This document shows, piece by piece, positions 20,259-24,023 of a DNA stretch of 32,000 nt. The number at the start of each line of letters is the position of its first letter. Within the stretch, counting starts at the first letter, position 1. Origin of the DNA: Pyrodictium abyssi (GTDB taxonomy: Archaea; Thermoproteota; Thermoprotei_A; Sulfolobales; Pyrodictiaceae); NCBI RefSeq assembly GCF_036323395.1, contig NZ_AP028907.1, forward strand, positions 900,001 to 932,000, read 5' to 3'. Both the position numbers and the translations under genes were made by a program. Under the pieces are notes generated by a model. That model was not told where the DNA came from. It saw only the letters and a program-made list of their open reading frames with translations, and searched no databases.

Positions 20259-23200
20259 TTGCCGGATGAGACTCGTAGAGATGTACTCAAGGCTATAGCT
20301 CTTGGTGCTGCCCTAGCTGCTGTAGGTGGTGTAGTCACATACTACGGTACTGGTAGAGAGAAGACGGTCTACGAGACAGTGACCAAGACGCTCACCGAGA
20401 CCCTAACAAAGACTGTGACCGAGACGATAACTCCTGGCCAGACTACCACTACAACCACAAAGGCTGAGGAGACCCAGCCTGCGAAGCCCAAGCTAGCTGT
20501 CGTCCCCGTAGGCCCCTGCAGGTTCTGTGGCGTTGGCTGCGGTGTCCAGGCGCAAGTGATACTGGACCCGCAGACCGGCATGGCTAAGGACATAGTAGCA
20601 CTAATGGGTATACCAGAATACCCCGTCAACAGGGGTGCACTCTGCACCAAGGCCTTCTACATTCACAAGGCAATAGGTTATGGTGGCAACAAGCAGGCGT
20701 TTGAGCAGAGGCTCAAGAAGCCACTGGTAATCAAGGACTGGATTATACCCGGCAAGAATAGGCCACCAATAACACCCGAGGAGATACCAGAGGCGCCTAG
20801 AGTCAAGAACCGCCAGGTAAGCAAGAACGTTGATGCTACAGTGCCCACGGTGGAGCACATAAAGAAGAACTATGTCGAAGTAGACTGGGACACTGCTGTA
20901 AAGTTCTTCACCGCAATGATGAAGTATGTTCTCCAGAAGTACGGCCCACACGGCTTCGCCTACTATGGTAGCGGCCAGCTAGGCACCGAGGAGAGCTACG
21001 CCATAAACAAGCTAACAAAGGCGGGCATACACACCAACAACCTAGACGGCAACCCGCGAATGTGTATGGTCAGCGCAGTCGGCGGCTTCATAACAAGCTA
21101 CGGTGCAGACGAGCCCGAAGTAAGCTACGACCACATAGACATACCAGAGCCCGATACTGGCGTACACGCCGACACGTTCCTACTAATAGGCACAAACACG
21201 GCAGAAGCCCACCCCATAGTATTCGGTCGTATTGCACAGGTGAAGCAGAAGAACCCCGACAAGGTCAAGGTTATACTAGCTGACCCCCGTAAGACAAGGA
21301 GCGGAAGCATCGCCGACCTATGGCTCCCGCTACGCTGGAGCATGGACGTGGCATTCCTCAACACTCTAGCCCACATACTAGCATTCGACCTAGACAAGTG
21401 TAGGGTAGACGCTAAGACCGGCAAGGTAGAGTGTAAGGGCGAGTACATAGACATAACCTGGCTAAAGCGCCACGCAGACTTCGCAATACCCGTCAACACT
21501 GCCAAGACATGGGCACTCAAGGAGTACAACAACAAGTACAACAACATGGGAGACCTAAACAAGGTCTGGGACATGGGTACAACAGCAAGCAACGCAGCAA
21601 ACTACAAGCTCTACCCAAGCGTCGGCAAGGAGTATAAGAGCGAAGACGAGGTAGAGAAGGACTGGTGGAAGGGCTTCGCGCTCTACCTAAAGTTCCTCGA
21701 GCTATACAAGCCAGAGATAATGGTGAAGATACTATTCGGCGACGAGAAGCCGCTAATCAGCAGGAAGACCGCTGAGCAGCTAATAAAGGCGGGTGAGCTG
21801 AGCCCAGACAAGGTAAACATGGCCAGCAACGAGCCGTTCGTCGAGATCGACCCGATAGAGGCTATGAGGCTAGCAGCTAAGTGGATGGCGAAGGGCAGGC
21901 TCCTCGTATTCTGGACGATGGGTGTCAACCAGAAGATCCAGGGCGTACACTCGGTCAACAGCATAATCAACATACTTGCCCTCACGGGCCAGATAGGCAA
22001 GTATGGCGCCGGTAGCTTTAGCCTCACCGGCCAGCCAAACGCTTGTGGCGGTATCCGTGACCAGGGCGGTCTGGCACACGTACTACCCTATGGCAGGCTT
22101 ATCGCCAAGAAGGCTGCTAGGGAGCAGGTAGAGAACATCTGGAAGAAGCTGACCGAAGAATACCTGAAGGAGCGCGGCTACTCGCCAGATGCCATAAAGA
22201 AGGAGGTAGAGAAGGTCTACGTACACCCGGTACCAGGCCCGCACGTAGTAGAGATGTTCCGCCGCGTCAACGCTGGCCAGCTAAAGATAGTCTGGATAGC
22301 CGAGACAAACCCAGGCCACAGCCTACCAAACGTGTTCAAGTTCCGCGCTGGCATGGCTAAGCCACACGACGATGACCCAGCGTTCCCGTTCATAGTAGTC
22401 AGCGACATCTACCCGACAAGGACAACCGACCTGGCGGACCTCGTACTGCCGGCAGCAGCATGGGGCGAGAAGGAGTTCAAGTACGGTTGTAGCGAGCGCC
22501 GCTACAGCGTAGCCAGGTACATAATACCGCCGCCAGGCGAAGCGGTAGGCGACCACATGATATTCGCGATGATAGGTAAGGCGCTAGAAGATGAGGGTCT
22601 AGTGCCAAAGGGTGTCGTAAGCGGCTTCTTCCCAGAGGATGTAGACAAGGCGGCTAAGGCTGCTGGTAAGAGCTGGGTACAGTACATAGTTGAGAAGAGC
22701 CGCGACAAGAAGTGGCATGAGGAGTTCCTCAACAGAGTATGGGACCGCGACATACTAAGCCTCGCCAAGAACACCTATTACGACTTCAGCTACGTGAAGC
22801 GTGAGGCATTCAGGAAGATGGTAAACGGCTTCCGCTGGCCATGGCCAGAGCAGTATGCTACCAACCCAAGCGTGAAGATGCGCTACGACAAGTACCAGTC
22901 TGCTAGCAGGTTCGCATACCCGTACGACCCGCTGATGCCAGATCCAGAGGTAATTAAGAAGATATACAACGACATAAAGGGCATGGACAGCGCTGAAGAG
23001 ATAGCAGCATACATAAGCAAGCTAGACCCCAACGTGGTACACCCAGTACACAAGGCCAAGTGGCTAGGCAAGCTATCGCACAACCCGGTGCTAATGAAGT
23101 GGGTGCTAAAGCACATAGTAGAGGAGATAGACGACCAGGCCTACAAGAAGGCAAGCAAGGTGCCGGTCGACTGGTATGTAGTGTTCTACGCTAAGCCTAC

Positions 23201-24023
23201 AGGCAGGATGACAATATGGGCTAGGCCGTGGCTACCAATAACCATGGACCATGAGACCGGTGAAGTAAAGATAAACAAGGAGGTCATAATAACCAGAGAG
23301 GCGCTAGACGTAGACACGGTGTTCAAGGGCAAGATATCGGTATTCAGCGAGCCAAAGGGCCCGTTCAAGGTACTTGAGAAGCACAAGGCCCTACCGGCCA
23401 GCGGCGACCCAGAGAAGGGCCTGCAGGTGCTAGCCACAAAGACTTGGGGCGAGGCCCTCCGGACAAACCGTGGCGACATAGAGGCGATCTTCGAGATAGC
23501 GCTAGCTCCGGCAGAGGCGCCAGGCTTCTCACTCAAGTACAAGCTCGACAACGGCCAGGTAATAACAGTGAGAGATGCTACTGGCTATGAGCTAGTAGCC
23601 ACCACCGGCCGTATAGTAGAGCACTGGCACACAGGAACAATGACAGGTAGAGTACCAGAACTCAAGCGTGTAAAGCCGGCAGCATACGTCGAGATACACA
23701 AGAAGCTGGCCGAGAAGCTAGGCATAAAGGACGGCGACTGGGTGACAGTAGAGAGCCCACGCGGCAAGGTAACCGTAAAGGCTGTGGTACTAGACCCGAA
23801 GACAGGCCTTGGCGGCCCCAGAATGGACTACGTGTTCATACCATGGTTCGACGAGAACAAGCTGGCGAACGCGCTAACACTAGACAACTACGACGTGCAG
23901 CCGTACTTCTTCCAGCCAGACTACAAGACATGCGCAGCGAGGATAAGGAAGGCGACGCCAGACGAGATACCCAAGAGCGAAGTCGAGCAGACCGGTAAGC
24001 CCAAGTACAGTATAAGAGTCTAA
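20259..24023 (+). CDS. napA: NapA-like molybdopterin (Mo-bisPGD) oxidoreductase catalytic subunit with Tat signal and Thr-rich stalk; unusually long at 1254 aa
   Basis: The Tat motif is ETRRDVLKAIALGAALAAVGG. The TxT repeat is TVTKTLTETLTKTVTETITPGQTTTTTT (nt 20364..20492). The [4Fe-4S] motif is CRFCGVGCGV...YPVNRGALCTKAFY, which closely resembles the E. coli-type NapA motif CRFCGTGCGV...PVNRGLNCIKGYF. The Mo-Cys context is NLDGNPRMCMVSAVGGF. Other NapA-like blocks are FWTMGVNQKIQG, LTGQPNACGG, TGRIVEHWHTGTMTGRVPEL, FIPWFDENKLANALTLD and QPDYKTCAARI. Confidence 0.85.
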   Translation: MPDETRRDVLKAIALGAALAAVGGVVTYYGTGREKTVYETVTKTLTETLTKTVTETITPGQTTTTTTKAEETQPAKPKLAVVPVGPCRFCGVGCGVQAQVILDPQTGMAKDIVALMGIPEYPVNRGALCTKAFYIHKAIGYGGNKQAFEQRLKKPLVIKDWIIPGKNRPPITPEEIPEAPRVKNRQVSKNVDATVPTVEHIKKNYVEVDWDTAVKFFTAMMKYVLQKYGPHGFAYYGSGQLGTEESYAINKLTKAGIHTNNLDGNPRMCMVSAVGGFITSYGADEPEVSYDHIDIPEPDTGVHADTFLLIGTNTAEAHPIVFGRIAQVKQKNPDKVKVILADPRKTRSGSIADLWLPLRWSMDVAFLNTLAHILAFDLDKCRVDAKTGKVECKGEYIDITWLKRHADFAIPVNTAKTWALKEYNNKYNNMGDLNKVWDMGTTASNAANYKLYPSVGKEYKSEDEVEKDWWKGFALYLKFLELYKPEIMVKILFGDEKPLISRKTAEQLIKAGELSPDKVNMASNEPFVEIDPIEAMRLAAKWMAKGRLLVFWTMGVNQKIQGVHSVNSIINILALTGQIGKYGAGSFSLTGQPNACGGIRDQGGLAHVLPYGRLIAKKAAREQVENIWKKLTEEYLKERGYSPDAIKKEVEKVYVHPVPGPHVVEMFRRVNAGQLKIVWIAETNPGHSLPNVFKFRAGMAKPHDDDPAFPFIVVSDIYPTRTTDLADLVLPAAAWGEKEFKYGCSERRYSVARYIIPPPGEAVGDHMIFAMIGKALEDEGLVPKGVVSGFFPEDVDKAAKAAGKSWVQYIVEKSRDKKWHEEFLNRVWDRDILSLAKNTYYDFSYVKREAFRKMVNGFRWPWPEQYATNPSVKMRYDKYQSASRFAYPYDPLMPDPEVIKKIYNDIKGMDSAEEIAAYISKLDPNVVHPVHKAKWLGKLSHNPVLMKWVLKHIVEEIDDQAYKKASKVPVDWYVVFYAKPTGRMTIWARPWLPITMDHETGEVKINKEVIITREALDVDTVFKGKISVFSEPKGPFKVLEKHKALPASGDPEKGLQVLATKTWGEALRTNRGDIEAIFEIALAPAEAPGFSLKYKLDNGQVITVRDATGYELVATTGRIVEHWHTGTMTGRVPELKRVKPAAYVEIHKKLAEKLGIKDGDWVTVESPRGKVTVKAVVLDPKTGLGGPRMDYVFIPWFDENKLANALTLDNYDVQPYFFQPDYKTCAARIRKATPDEIPKSEVEQTGKPKYSIRV

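What the first reader, a model, noticed from the sequence alone, without database searches (positions are those of the whole stretch)
20259..24023. NapA-like subunit is about 50% longer than bacterial NapA and starts with a Tat signal followed by a TxT-repeat stalk
Seen: the protein is 1254 aa, whereas bacterial NapA is about 830 aa (established). After ETRRDVLK and a hydrophobic h-region comes a low-complexity repeat, TVYETVTKTLTETLTKTVTETITPGQTTTTTTKAEETQPAKPK (nt 20364..20492). The first Fe-S cysteine follows at residue 87.

Comparing with my memory of the NapA consensus (not an alignment), extra blocks sit at roughly aa 160-205, 380-535, 895-965 and 995-1085. These lie between conserved NapA landmarks: RLKKPL...VDWDTA, ADPRKT...FWTMGVNQ, FRWPWP...FYAKPTGR and WARPW...TTGRIVEHWHTG.

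Inference: the Thr-rich segment is a glycosylated spacer holding the enzyme off the membrane or under the S-layer. It could act either after signal cleavage at ALA-AV or with the uncleaved signal serving as an anchor. The insertions could be thermostabilising or partner-docking modules.
Basis: partly seen in the sequence, partly recalled or inferred. Interest (0 to 1): 0.6.

Follow-up and report, generated by a model that had tools for sequence, protein, structure and literature searches.

The report
Membrane-tethered long-type archaeal NapA
This Pyrodictium abyssi gene encodes a real but unusually large periplasmic-type nitrate reductase; most of its extra length is shared with a little-studied bacterial "long NapA" lineage, and a threonine-rich leash at its start probably keeps it tied to the cell membrane.

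Summary
ORF 20259..24023 encodes 1254 aa: a TRRDVLK Tat motif, an 18-residue hydrophobic segment, then a 43-residue segment that is 42% Thr, with the first Fe-S Cys at residue 87. It is not a fusion or misassembly. Full-length orthologues (1240-1292 aa, 67-92% identical) occur across Pyrodictiaceae and Ignicoccus. An AlphaFold model of residues 79-1254 is one compact fold (pLDDT 92.8).

The core matches D. desulfuricans NapA (TM 0.91 on the target), and the Mo-ligand Cys and active-site Met/Met/Arg are conserved. About 494 residues are extra relative to 750-aa NapA, in about 18 blocks. Roughly two-thirds of them are shared with a common bacterial clade of about 1110 aa (Nitrospirota, Desulfurivibrio, Kryptonia). 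So they are lineage traits, not thermoadaptations.

The Thr-rich stalk is confined to Pyrodictiaceae. A neighbouring monoheme cytochrome (17157..17858) carries the mirror-image device: a Thr-rich stalk plus a C-terminal TM helix. Its bacterial homologues sit directly upstream of long napA and lack any anchor.

Best reading: a Tat-exported, signal-anchored nitrate reductase that works with NapGH, a NapD-like chaperone and this cytochrome. Glycosylation and non-cleavage of the signal are inferred, not shown. The orthologues are already annotated as Nap. The architecture has not been described in the papers I could search.

The parts
20259..24023 (+). Long-type NapA catalytic subunit, 1254 aa (P. 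abyssi PABY_10170 / WP_338252547.1)
   Evidence: ORF confirmed. Pfam domains Molybdop_Fe4S4, Molybdopterin and Molydop_binding. Best NCBIfam model is NapA. Best PDB sequence and fold match is D. desulfuricans NapA. Exact sequence is on record for P. abyssi.
20259..20345 (+). Tat signal: n-region with TRRDVLK (res 1-11) and h-region AIALGAALAAVGGVVTYY (res 12-29). Proposed to be an uncleaved signal anchor.
   Evidence: TAT_signal is the top Pfam hit but sub-threshold. Identity to the window protein, averaged over 22 orthologues, is 0.84 (n-region) and 0.82 (h-region), the same as the catalytic part at 0.82. No conserved small-x-small site follows the h-region; a conserved Y-[YF] belt sits there instead.
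20364..20492 (+). Thr-rich stalk. Residues 36-59 are T-[VLI]-T-[EK] x6. Residues 60-78 are PG + poly-Thr + AEETQPAKPK.
   Evidence: 42% Thr, P=4e-13. 12-nt period. Present with variable length and sequence in all 22 Pyrodictiaceae orthologues (15-39% Thr). Absent from Ignicoccus-type and bacterial homologues. Identity only 0.41-0.48.
20517..20647 (+). [4Fe-4S] cluster motif C87-x2-C90-x3-C94...C129, with K131
   Evidence: Invariant in the 80-sequence alignment A1 (C9, C12, C16, C51, K53 in A1 numbering). Pfam Molybdop_Fe4S4.
20736..20861 (+). Insertion 1 (res 160-201), immediately after the Fe-S domain
   Evidence: Absent from 750-aa NapA; present in the bacterial long clade except 5 residues. 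BLASTP of residues 134-201 alone against bacterial long NapA gives E 1e-4 to 1e-6. pLDDT 95-98.
21063..21068 (+). Mo-ligand Cys269 and Met270 (equivalent to D. desulfuricans NapA Cys140-Met141)
   Evidence: Residue mapping from the alignment. Invariant in A1 (C191, M192). M554 = M308 and R600 = R354 are also invariant.
21390..21863 (+). Insertion region 2 (res 378-535; blocks 378-394, 416-470, 492-528): beta-hairpin, small beta/alpha module
   Evidence: Blocks. BLASTP of this region alone against bacterial long NapA gives E 1e-20 to 1e-29. Secondary structure and pLDDT 90-97.
22161..22220 (+). Insertion (res 635-654), helical hairpin.
22611..22718 (+). Insertion (res 785-820), helical.
22899..23171 (+). 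Insertion region 3 (res 881-971), an all-helical module. Residues 896-913 and 925-940 are archaea-specific.
   Evidence: Blocks and structure. BLASTP of residues 881-1107 against bacterial long NapA gives E 1e-7 to 1e-13.
23232..23579 (+). Insertion region 4 (res 992-1107), an alpha/beta module. Residues 1054-1072 are archaea-specific.
   Evidence: With residues 881-1107 as a single query, only the archaeal representative was found at significant level across 1.84 billion representatives.
17157..17858 (+). Monoheme c-type cytochrome with a reeler/spondin-like beta-sandwich, 233 aa. It has a Sec signal (HASS|MSNGAP), CVQCH at residues 36-40, a Thr-rich stalk at about residues 166-208, and a TM helix at 209-232 followed by RK. 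Candidate electron donor to NapA.
   Evidence: NCBIfam 'choice-of-anchor V' at 102 bits (cut-off 42). Homologues lie directly upstream of long napA in 6 of 6 bacterial loci and are in the cluster in Pyrodictiaceae. AF2 pLDDT 83.5, with the stalk below 55. Foldseek best match is the F-spondin reeler domain.
18019..19116 (+). Conserved Fe-S protein (about 337 aa in H. butylicus; true start downstream of 18019), accessory gene of the archaeal cluster
   Evidence: Sub-threshold matches to single 4Fe-4S motifs. tblastn to L001, L002, L003 and L007 at E 1e-85 to 1e-170. Called as a 337-aa gene in H. butylicus.
19118..20086 (-). Conserved divergent gene of about 320 aa, unknown function
   Evidence: Adjacent to napA in the window, Pyrolobus, Hyperthermus and I. 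islandicus. No Pfam, NCBIfam or PDB match.
24435..25508 (+). NapG-like periplasmic poly-ferredoxin with its own Tat signal. Probable start at 24486 or 24504.
   Evidence: NCBIfam NapG is the best hit at 94.6 bits (cut-off 269). Multiple Fer4 family hits. TAT_signal is sub-threshold.
25528..26475 (+). NapH-like membrane quinol dehydrogenase subunit
   Evidence: NCBIfam NapH is the best hit at 154 bits (cut-off 234). Fer4_5.
26588..26971 (+). NapD-like chaperone candidate, 127 aa
   Evidence: Pfam NapD is the top hit but sub-threshold (E=0.02), both here and for the Pyrolobus homologue. It occupies the position that napD holds in bacterial napAGHD operons.

Best explanation
The gene encodes the catalytic subunit of a 'long-type' periplasmic nitrate reductase (NapA) of Pyrodictium abyssi.

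**Proposed pathway.**
1. The protein folds in the cytoplasm with its [4Fe-4S] cluster and Mo-bis-MGD cofactor.
2. A NapD-like chaperone (26588..26971) guards it.
3. It is exported folded through the Tat pathway.
4. The signal peptide is most likely not cleaved. Its conserved hydrophobic helix stays in the membrane as an N-terminal anchor.
5. A flexible Thr-rich linker of about 50 residues then leashes the 132-kDa enzyme in the space between the membrane and the S-layer.

**Proposed electron route.** Quinol -> NapH (membrane) -> NapG -> probably the monoheme reeler-fold cytochrome encoded at 17157..17858 -> the NapA Fe-S cluster -> Mo, where nitrate is reduced to nitrite. The cytochrome is tethered the mirror-image way, by a Thr-rich stalk and a C-terminal TM helix.

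**Origin of the extra length.** Apart from the stalk and a 22-residue C-terminal tail, the roughly 494 extra residues are ordered surface modules inserted at about 16 sites in the NapA fold. About two-thirds were inherited from the ancestor shared with the bacterial 1110-aa NapA clade. That clade uses the same cytochrome and NapGHD and has no NapB. About 110 residues are further archaeal enlargements at the same sites, and 42 are the stalk.

**Shown:** the fold, cofactor motifs, active-site residues, insertion map, synteny and distribution of the stalks.

**Inferred:** non-cleavage of the signal, O-glycosylation, the cytochrome as direct donor, and any docking role for the insertions.
For: **Identity as a NapA-type enzyme**
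- The best family, sequence and fold matches are all NapA.
- Foldseek gives TM 0.89-0.91 normalised on D. desulfuricans NapA.
- C269/M270/M554/R600 align to Dd NapA C140/M141/M308/R354 and are invariant in 80 homologues.

**Real and intact gene**
- 30 or more full-length orthologues were found.
- The AF2 model has pLDDT 92.8 and pTM 0.92, with all insertion blocks at pLDDT 90 or more.
- The insertions are conserved at 0.75 identity, against 0.86 for the core.

**Shared insertions**
- The insertion regions on their own give BLASTP hits at the same positions in bacterial long NapA.

**Nitrate function**
- The P. delaneyi orthologue Pyrde_1154 was detected by proteomics. Cell extracts had 798 nmol/min/mg nitrate reductase activity (PMC8105010).
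- Strain Hulk grows on nitrate and its cluster is annotated NapADFGH (PMC5556600).
- D. alkaliphilus napAGHD is highly expressed on nitrate (PMC5516251).
- D. dismutans NapA is upregulated on nitrate (PMC12142623).
- nrfA lies next to the cluster in 3 bacterial loci.

**Tether**
- The only two ORFs in the 32-kb window with Thr-rich segments are NapA and the cytochrome. In each, the segment adjoins a hydrophobic helix.
- Bacterial homologues of both proteins lack stalks.
- Ignicoccus-type homologues lack the NapA Thr stalk and the cytochrome's TM helix.
- The signal n/h-region is as conserved as the enzyme, while the stalk is not.
- The cytochrome has a conserved AxA cleavage site before MSNGAP. 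NapA has none after its h-region.
- ST-linkers that follow a hydrophobic N-terminal segment are known in Sulfolobus binding proteins, where they are proposed to act as flexible arms (PMC2797410).
Against: - No signal-peptide or Tat predictor could be run. Conservation of the signal could instead reflect binding by NapD. A G-T-G|R site after the h-region cannot be excluded in this particular protein.
- The NCBIfam NapA, NapG and NapH equivalog cut-offs are not reached (396 vs 904 bits, 95 vs 269, 154 vs 234).
- From my own knowledge, P. abyssi, Hyperthermus butylicus and Ignicoccus are not known to respire nitrate. For I. hospitalis this is stated in PMC2614490, yet they keep intact clusters.
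- In P. delaneyi the protein was not more abundant on nitrate than on iron.
- The cytochrome is not linked to napA in I. islandicus, and its family also occurs outside nap contexts (the NCBIfam MXAN_6652 family).
The position of the insertions relative to the substrate funnel or the Fe-S face is therefore not established.
Confidence: 0.72

Rival explanations
1. The Tat signal is cleaved by signal peptidase I, for example after G30-T31-G32. The Thr-rich segment is then the free N-terminal tail of a soluble enzyme. The S-layer would retain that enzyme, or the tail would bind the S-layer or a partner, rather than acting as a membrane leash.
For: - Gly is tolerated at positions -1 and -3, and YYGTG|R exists in this sequence.
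- Bacterial homologues have cleavable-looking signals ending AxA.
- Conservation of the signal could be due to recognition by NapD (for the NapD-like gene).
Against: - The putative site is not conserved among orthologues (YFGYT, YLASP, YHLTG and others).
- The h-region, about 18-21 residues with a GxxxA/GG pattern and an aromatic belt, is as conserved as the catalytic domain (0.82).
- The partner cytochrome clearly uses a TM helix plus the same kind of stalk. A tether is therefore the local solution.
- Kashyap and Holden describe the orthologue as a 'membrane' Nap-like enzyme, though that is a prediction.
Confidence: 0.22
2. The enzyme is not a nitrate reductase in this organism. It would be a NapA-derived molybdoenzyme with another substrate (for example chlorate, selenate or a sulfur/metal compound) or a redox-balancing role. 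The insertions would reshape the substrate funnel.
For: - Intact clusters are kept in taxa not reported to respire nitrate (I. hospitalis: PMC2614490; H. butylicus cluster).
- The NapA equivalog cut-off is not met.
- The protein is not induced by nitrate in P. delaneyi.
Against: - All NapA-specific active-site residues (Cys-Met, Met, Arg) are invariant across the long clade.
- Members of the clade respond to nitrate in D. alkaliphilus and D. dismutans.
- nrfA is adjacent in three bacterial loci.
- P. delaneyi and Pyrolobus reduce nitrate, and P. delaneyi extracts show the activity.
Confidence: 0.13
3. The insertions are primarily thermostabilising additions acquired for life at 100 C.
For: - About 110 residues of insertion are archaea-specific.
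- They are rich in helices and charged residues.
Against: - Two-thirds of the inserted residues are shared with bacterial enzymes, including that of Desulfurivibrio alkaliphilus, which I know as a mesophile.
- Adding surface loops is not a usual route to thermostability (general knowledge).
Confidence: 0.08
4. The extra length is an artefact: a misassembly, a fused neighbouring gene or a wrong start codon.
For: None found. The TTG start was the only initial concern.
Against: - More than 20 independent genomes and metagenomes carry co-linear 1240-1292-aa orthologues with the same start.
- The exact sequence is in the P. abyssi complete genome.
- The AF2 model is a single compact fold.
Confidence: 0.01

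Closest known systems
Monomeric NapA of Desulfovibrio desulfuricans ATCC 27774 (PDB 2NAP/2JIO, 723 aa)
   Same: - Best sequence match (E 6e-116) and best fold match (TM 0.91 on the target).
- Same Fe-S motif, Mo-ligand Cys140 and M141/M308/R354.
- No NapB.
- Tat-exported.
   Different: - The window protein has about 450 more residues in the mature part, at about 16 sites. Only 56% of the model is covered by any PDB structure.
- It has an N-terminal anchor and stalk.
- It is encoded with NapGH, a NapD-like protein and a monoheme reeler-fold cytochrome.
Bacterial 'long' NapA of napAGHD operons (Desulfurivibrio alkaliphilus, Ca. Kryptonia, Nitrospirota/Thermodesulfovibrionales; about 1105-1136 aa). 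Called 'a novel type of NapA' by Thorup et al. 2017 (PMC5516251).
   Same: - 38-42% identity over 92% of the length.
- Shares about 343 of the 494 extra residues, at the same sites.
- Same gene set: monoheme cytochrome, NapG, NapH, NapD.
- No NapB or NapC.
   Different: - The bacterial forms have an ordinary cleavable-looking Tat signal followed by only an 18-20-residue linker with no Thr stalk.
- They are about 110 residues smaller within the insertions.
- They carry their own extra 17 residues after position 979.
- Their cytochrome is soluble, apart from one with a C-terminal hydrophobic tail (L015).
Heterodimeric NapAB (E. coli 2NYA, R. sphaeroides 1OGY, C. necator 3ML1) and the 924-aa Campylobacter jejuni NapA (9PXT)
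   Same: - Same catalytic fold and active site.
- Length variation among these classes falls at the same two hot spots: after the third Rossmann-like segment, and between domains I and IV.
   Different: - No dihaem NapB gene is present here.
- Sequence scores are lower (E about 1e-84).
- The insertions here are far larger.
ST-linker-tethered surface proteins of Crenarchaeota (Sulfolobus sugar-binding proteins; Elferink 2001 and Albers 2004, as cited in PMC2797410)
   Same: A hydrophobic N-terminal segment followed by a Ser/Thr-rich linker, proposed to be a flexible arm between the membrane or scaffold and a functional domain.
   Different: - Those proteins are Sec/class-3-signal substrates and solute-binding proteins.
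- Here the device sits on a Tat-exported, cofactor-loaded 132-kDa redox enzyme.
- The first half of this linker is a strict T-x-T-x period-4 repeat.
Tat-dependent N-terminal signal-anchor proteins (Rieske Fe-S subunits)
   Same: A twin-arginine signal that is retained as a TM anchor for a cofactor-containing domain on the outer face (established knowledge). The Pfam UCR_Fe-S_N model gives a weak hit on the N-terminus.
   Different: No homology in the mature domain. Rieske proteins lack a long low-complexity stalk.
Predicted monoheme spondin-fold cytochromes c of Ignicoccus, Pyrolobus and Hyperthermus (cluster 38 in Kletzin et al. 2015, PMC4429474); NCBIfam 'choice-of-anchor V' domain NF041895
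   Same: The neighbouring gene 17157..17858 belongs to this family. The same F-spondin reeler template was recovered here by Foldseek.
   Different: That paper did not link the family to Nap. Here it is syntenic with long napA in bacteria (6 of 6 loci) and in Pyrodictiaceae.

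Membership tests
Periplasmic nitrate reductase NapA (Mo-bis-MGD, DMSO reductase superfamily) | Four-domain bis-MGD fold with Molybdopterin and Molydop_binding domains | tested here: met
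   Pfam domains at E 9e-44 and 2e-23. AF2 plus Foldseek gives TM 0.91 to 2NAP.
Periplasmic nitrate reductase NapA (Mo-bis-MGD, DMSO reductase superfamily) | N-terminal [4Fe-4S] motif CxxCxxxC...C followed by a conserved Lys | tested here: met
   C87, C90, C94, C129 and K131 are invariant in alignment A1.
Periplasmic nitrate reductase NapA (Mo-bis-MGD, DMSO reductase superfamily) | Cys ligand to Mo in a Cys-Met context, plus active-site Met and Arg (Dd C140, M141, M308, R354). Not the Sec/Cys-His pair of formate dehydrogenases. | tested here: met
   C269, M270, M554 and R600 align to these positions and are invariant in 80 homologues.
Periplasmic nitrate reductase NapA (Mo-bis-MGD, DMSO reductase superfamily) | Twin-arginine signal peptide | tested here: inconclusive
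   The T-R-R-D-V-L-K motif is present. Pfam TAT_signal is the top hit but scores 18.9 bits against a 22.7 cut-off. No TatP or SignalP tool was available.
Periplasmic nitrate reductase NapA (Mo-bis-MGD, DMSO reductase superfamily) | Score above the curated NCBIfam/TIGRFAM NapA equivalog cut-off | tested here: not met
   NF010055 scores 396 bits against 904. TIGR01706 scores 375 against 930.55, matched in three stretches. The protein is therefore a divergent subclass, not a canonical equivalog.
Periplasmic nitrate reductase NapA (Mo-bis-MGD, DMSO reductase superfamily) | Nitrate-reducing activity | not testable with these tools
   Indirect evidence only. P. delaneyi extract activity and the orthologue in its proteome (PMC8105010). 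Nitrate-responsive expression in Desulfurivibrio (PMC5516251, PMC12142623).
Heterodimeric NapAB class | Dihaem cytochrome NapB encoded with NapA | tested here: not met
   No dihaem gene lies in the cluster. The only c-type haem protein is a monoheme reeler-fold protein.
NapGH-dependent Nap systems | NapG poly-ferredoxin and NapH membrane Fe-S quinol dehydrogenase adjacent to napA | tested here: met
   NapG and NapH are the best NCBIfam hits (E 5e-27 and 4e-45), though below the equivalog cut-offs. They are syntenic in archaeal and bacterial loci.
Bacterial/archaeal 'long NapA' lineage (napAGHD type) | Shared insertion blocks at homologous positions, and a monoheme 'choice-of-anchor V' cytochrome gene in the cluster | tested here: met
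   Block map. Region-only BLASTP. Cytochrome homologues in 6 of 6 bacterial loci and in the window and six further Pyrodictiaceae loci.
Archaeal ST-linker membrane tethers | A Ser/Thr-rich low-complexity linker directly adjoining a TM or hydrophobic anchor of an extracytoplasmic protein | tested here: met
   Sequence. The partner's stalk is predicted disordered (pLDDT below 55).
Archaeal ST-linker membrane tethers | O-glycosylation of the linker | not testable with these tools
   NapA has no N-x-S/T sequon anywhere, so any glycan would be O-linked. Crenarchaeal O-glycosylation is uncharacterised (PMC6098224).

The most novel reading that the evidence does not exclude
The long NapA enzymes, bacterial and archaeal, form a distinct Nap subclass. 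In it, a monoheme reeler/spondin-fold c-type cytochrome replaces NapB as the direct electron donor. It would dock on lineage-specific insertions near the Fe-S cluster, for example residues 134-201. This would answer the 'electron donor unknown' problem raised for Desulfurivibrio alkaliphilus.

In Pyrodictiaceae both partners were independently given Thr-rich, T-x-T-patterned stalks. These may do more than tether. For instance, the two stalks could pair as an intermolecular beta-ribbon or engage the S-layer, keeping enzyme and donor together in an open pseudo-periplasm.
Probability: 0.35. Interest if true: 0.65.

Novelty: new variant of a known kind. Interest (0 to 1): 0.48.

Why it matters
NapA is a textbook enzyme whose structures span 720-925 residues. 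This lineage adds 350-500 ordered residues that no solved structure covers. It also lacks NapB and NapC.

The conserved monoheme cytochrome gene next to napA was not mentioned in the Desulfurivibrio papers I read. It gives a concrete, testable candidate for the missing electron donor in organisms that matter for sulfide-driven nitrate ammonification.

The Pyrodictiaceae versions show how a bacterial-type soluble periplasmic redox pair can be refitted for a cell with no outer membrane. A membrane anchor and a Thr-rich leash are added to each partner, at opposite termini. This is useful for interpreting archaeal surface proteomes and for engineering displayed redox enzymes at about 100 C.

Tried and rejected
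- **Fusion or misassembly:** rejected.
- **Mapping the insertions relative to the substrate funnel or NapB face:** not possible. The AF2 model is returned only as a summary and no coordinates appear in /data. Only secondary structure, pLDDT and Foldseek scores were usable.
- **Whole-library HMMER search with insertion residues 881-1107:** it found only the archaeal representative plus one weak hit. It therefore could not count the bacterial clade. Pairwise BLASTP showed why: bit scores of 41-60 are too low for a library of 1.8 billion sequences.
- **N-glycosylation sequon depletion:** NapA has zero sequons, but orthologues have 0-4 with no consistent depletion. I dropped this as a signal.
- **The 322-aa and about 337-aa conserved accessory genes:** no Pfam, NCBIfam or PDB sequence match.
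- **Exact look-up of the P. abyssi NapA contig:** not on record.
- **att-site search around the integrase and tRNA-Arg:** no direct repeats of 20 nt or more.
- **Rfam on the whole window:** only the tRNA.
rejected on geometry, because the h-region would be too short.

Full report

Yes. ORF 20259..24023 (+) runs from a TTG start for 1254 codons to a stop. A G-rich stretch lies about 8 nt upstream of the start. All full-length orthologues begin with the same MPDETRRD.

The exact protein is on record as Pyrodictium abyssi PABY_10170 / WP_338252547.1, annotated 'molybdopterin oxidoreductase family protein'. The neighbouring cytochrome is 100% identical to a P. abyssi protein. The window therefore comes from P. 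abyssi.

Residues 5-11 read TRRDVLK. On the N-terminus alone, Pfam TAT_signal is the best hit but falls below its cut-off (18.9 vs 22.7 bits). The first Fe-S cysteine is residue 87.

The low-complexity segment is residues 36-78, which is nt 20364..20492. It holds 18 Thr in 43 residues, against 4.8% Thr elsewhere (P = 4e-13). Its first half is an exact period-4 repeat, T-[VLI]-T-[EK] x6. At DNA level this shows as a 12-nt period with 4.3 copies.

**2. Is it NapA-like, and where is the extra length?**

Pfam finds Molybdop_Fe4S4, Molybdopterin and Molydop_binding domains. The best NCBIfam models are the two NapA equivalogs. They match in three separate stretches and score far below the cut-offs (396 vs 904 bits).

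The best PDB sequence match is the monomeric NapA of D. desulfuricans (E 6e-116), aligned in six pieces separated by unaligned query stretches. From that alignment, C269, M270, M554 and R600 correspond to the Mo-ligand Cys140 and to Met141, Met308 and Arg354. All four, and the four Fe-S cysteines, are invariant in an 80-sequence alignment.

I aligned the protein with 5 archaeal long, 6 bacterial long and 6 short (about 750-aa) NapAs using MAFFT. This gives 494 residues absent from the short enzymes, in about 18 blocks. Blocks 635-654, 785-820 and 1090-1107 and the C-terminal tail were missed.

Compared with E. coli NapA (792 aa) and C. jejuni NapA (924 aa), the length differences fall at the same two hot spots.

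**3. Is it a fusion or an artefact?**

No. There are more than 20 co-linear orthologues of 1240-1292 aa in independent genomes and metagenomes.

An AlphaFold2 model of residues 79-1254 has mean pLDDT 92.8 and pTM 0.92, and every insertion block has pLDDT of 90 or more. The only weaker bins are the cofactor-contacting loops, as expected for an apo model.

Foldseek against the PDB returns D. desulfuricans NapA first. The TM-score is 0.89-0.91 normalised on the target but only 0.56 on the query, and no PDB entry covers more than 58% of the model.

The insertions form these elements:
- residues 160-201: coil with short helices
- residues 378-528: beta-hairpin and a small beta/alpha module
- residues 635-654 and 785-820: helical elements
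- residues 881-971: an all-helical module
- residues 992-1107: an alpha/beta module

**4. Are the insertions unique?**

Below the archaeal clade, the homologue list is filled with about 70 clusters of 1105-1136-aa bacterial proteins. They are 38-42% identical over 92% of the length. Sources include Nitrospirota/Thermodesulfovibrionales, Dissulfurispira, Desulfurivibrio alkaliphilus and Ca. Kryptonium.

Only 151 of the 494 extra residues are missing from these bacterial proteins:
- the 42-residue stalk
- about 110 residues lying inside the same insertion sites

The insertion regions on their own find the corresponding regions of the bacterial proteins by BLASTP. E-values are 1e-20 to 1e-29 for residues 378-535, 1e-7 to 1e-13 for 881-1107, and 1e-4 to 1e-6 for 134-201.

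Those scores are too weak for a library-wide search. That explains why a search of 1.84 billion representatives with residues 881-1107 returned only the archaeal representative.

Thorup et al. described the D. alkaliphilus enzyme as 'a novel type of NapA' encoded by napAGHD. They noted it lacks napB, has an unknown electron donor, and is highly expressed on nitrate (PMC5516251). In D. dismutans the protein is strongly upregulated on nitrate (PMC12142623). Neither paper mentions the extra length or the insertions.

D. alkaliphilus is, to my knowledge, a mesophile. Thermostabilisation therefore cannot be the main explanation for the shared insertions.

**5. Gene context**

The window carries a seven-gene cluster:

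| Coordinates | Strand | Product |
|---|---|---|
| 17157..17858 | + | monoheme cytochrome |
| 18019..19116 | + | Fe-S protein (start uncertain) |
| 19118..20086 | - | conserved unknown, about 320 aa |
| 20259..24023 | + | NapA |
| 24435..25508 | + | NapG-like, with its own RR signal |
| 25528..26475 | + | NapH-like |
| 26588..26971 | + | NapD-like, 127 aa (Pfam NapD is the top hit, E=0.02) |

The same order occurs in Hyperthermus butylicus. The same genes occur in Pyrolobus and in Pyrodictium MAGs.

All six bacterial loci examined have the order [160-190-aa gene]-napA-napG-napH-napD. Three of them have nrfA just upstream.

The small upstream bacterial gene is a homologue of the window's 233-aa protein (tblastn E 1e-17 to 1e-34). 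The invariant motifs are CxxCH, GGF, LTHT, W...W.AP and A.NGD.

The window protein passes the NCBIfam 'choice-of-anchor V' domain model (102 bits against a cut-off of 42). It is modelled as a beta-sandwich (pLDDT 83.5), and its best PDB match is the F-spondin reeler domain. Kletzin et al. 2015 had predicted this family as spondin-fold monoheme cytochromes c in Ignicoccus, Pyrolobus and Hyperthermus, without any link to Nap (PMC4429474).

**6. The stalk**

Across 22 Pyrodictiaceae orthologues, the linker between the hydrophobic segment and the Fe-S domain is 45-72 residues long and 15-39% Thr. In Ignicoccus-type homologues it is a 37-43-residue charged segment with 2-9% Thr. In bacteria it is 18-20 residues.

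Identity to the window protein across the 22 orthologues:

| Region | Identity |
|---|---|
| n-region | 0.84 |
| h-region | 0.82 |
| catalytic part | 0.82 |
| T-x-T segment | 0.48 |
| poly-Thr part | 0.41 |

The linker is a length-variable, composition-conserved spacer. The signal sequence, by contrast, is conserved like a functional part of the mature protein. After the h-region there is a conserved Y-[YF] belt and no conserved small-x-small site.

The cytochrome family differs. It has a conserved H-A-x-A | MSNGAP cleavage site.

The cytochrome of Pyrodictiaceae ends in a Thr-rich stretch of about 40 residues (pLDDT below 55), a TM helix and then RK. Its bacterial homologues end right after the beta-sandwich.

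In the whole 32-kb window, only these two ORFs contain a 25-residue stretch with 9 or more Thr.

Ignicoccus-type cytochromes lack the TM helix. They end in Cys plus an alternating (T-V)n run, which I cannot explain.

The pattern fits one logic. The two components that are soluble in the bacterial periplasm each received an anchor plus a Thr-rich leash in archaea bounded only by an S-layer. This did not happen in Ignicoccus, which has an outer membrane.

Hydrophobic segment plus ST-linker tethers are known for Sulfolobus binding proteins, where they are proposed to act as flexible arms (PMC2797410). O-glycosylation of such clusters has been characterised only in haloarchaeal S-layer proteins (PMC6098224). 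NapA has no N-x-S/T sequon, so any glycan on it would be O-linked. That remains inference.

Fully extended, about 50 residues span at most about 17 nm. The cytochrome's stalk is similar in length.

**7. Function**

P. delaneyi reduces nitrate, and strain Hulk grows on it. Its orthologous cluster was annotated NapADFGH (PMC5556600). Its NapA (Pyrde_1154) and NapG were detected by proteomics. Extracts of nitrate-grown cells reduced nitrate at 798 nmol/min/mg at 80 C, although the protein was equally abundant in iron-grown cells (PMC8105010).

Against a universal respiratory role, I. hospitalis keeps a homologous operon but does not respire nitrate (PMC2614490). H. butylicus and P. abyssi are not known nitrate reducers, to my knowledge.

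**8. Verdict**

This is a genuine, intact, long-type NapA, most likely tethered to the membrane by its uncleaved Tat signal and a Thr-rich leash.

The insertions are inherited, ordered modules of a bacterial-archaeal NapA lineage that uses NapGH, NapD and, probably, a monoheme reeler-fold cytochrome in place of NapB. The orthologues are already annotated as Nap, and the lineage has already been flagged as unusual. The finding is therefore a new variant of a known kind, not a new system.

As far as the searchable literature shows, three things have not been described:
- the insertion architecture
- the cytochrome-napA linkage
- the paired Thr-stalk tethers

Noticed in passing
window 17157..17858 (+); homologues at L012 7371..7916, L013 7447..7983, L014 4473..4967, L015 4431..4994, L016 4461..4970, L017 1839..2324: A monoheme (CxxCH) reeler/spondin-fold cytochrome gene is conserved next to long-type napA in bacteria (6 of 6 loci) and in Pyrodictiaceae. 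It is a candidate for the 'unknown electron donor' of NapB-less NapA in Desulfurivibrio. The archaeal versions add a Thr-rich stalk and a C-terminal TM helix.
   Followed up: yes
proteins P0160, P0162 (Ignicoccus pacificus), P0164, P0166, P0169, P0171, P0172, P0174: Ignicoccus-type homologues of that cytochrome have no TM helix. They end in a Cys followed by an alternating Thr-Val run, for example CAPTTVTVTKTVTVTVTTTVTVTG. This could be a beta-strand anchor or a sorting signal of unknown kind. It echoes the T-x-T-x pattern of the NapA stalk.
   Followed up: partly
window 19118..20086 (-) and 18019..19116 (+): Two accessory genes are conserved beside archaeal napA: an unknown protein of about 320 aa (also next to napA in I. 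islandicus) and an Fe-S protein of about 337 aa. Neither has a family or PDB sequence match. They may be maturation factors.
   Followed up: partly
window 12738..14210: tRNA-Arg(TCG) at 12738..12815 is followed by an unknown ORF and an archaeal phage-type integrase (PF16795, E 3e-23) at 13629..14210. Unknown ORFs continue to about 16.5 kb. This may be an integrated element bordering the nap cluster. No flanking direct repeats of 20 nt or more were found.
   Followed up: partly
window 24024..24434 (to 24503 if napG starts at Met24): An unusually long non-coding gap of 410-480 nt lies between napA and napG for a compact archaeal genome. It has no Rfam match and only short ORFs of 51 aa or fewer.
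   Followed up: partly
L011 (Ignicoccus islandicus) 8001..11741 and flanks: In I. islandicus the long napA has the divergent 307-aa gene upstream but no napG, napH or cytochrome gene within 8 kb. A small rubrerythrin/encapsulated-ferritin-like gene follows instead. The cluster is dispersed in a genus that does not respire nitrate.
   Followed up: no
window 20259..24023: The 1254-aa protein contains no N-x-S/T glycosylation sequon (shuffle mean 3.9, P=0.02). Orthologues carry 0-4, so this is probably not a selected trait.
   Followed up: yes
L016 10021..10290 and 10463..10699, and 10714..13336 (-): One bacterial long-nap locus has two tandem napD genes. Next to it, on the opposite strand, are a second molybdoenzyme gene and a NarJ/TorD-type chaperone gene.
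   Followed up: no
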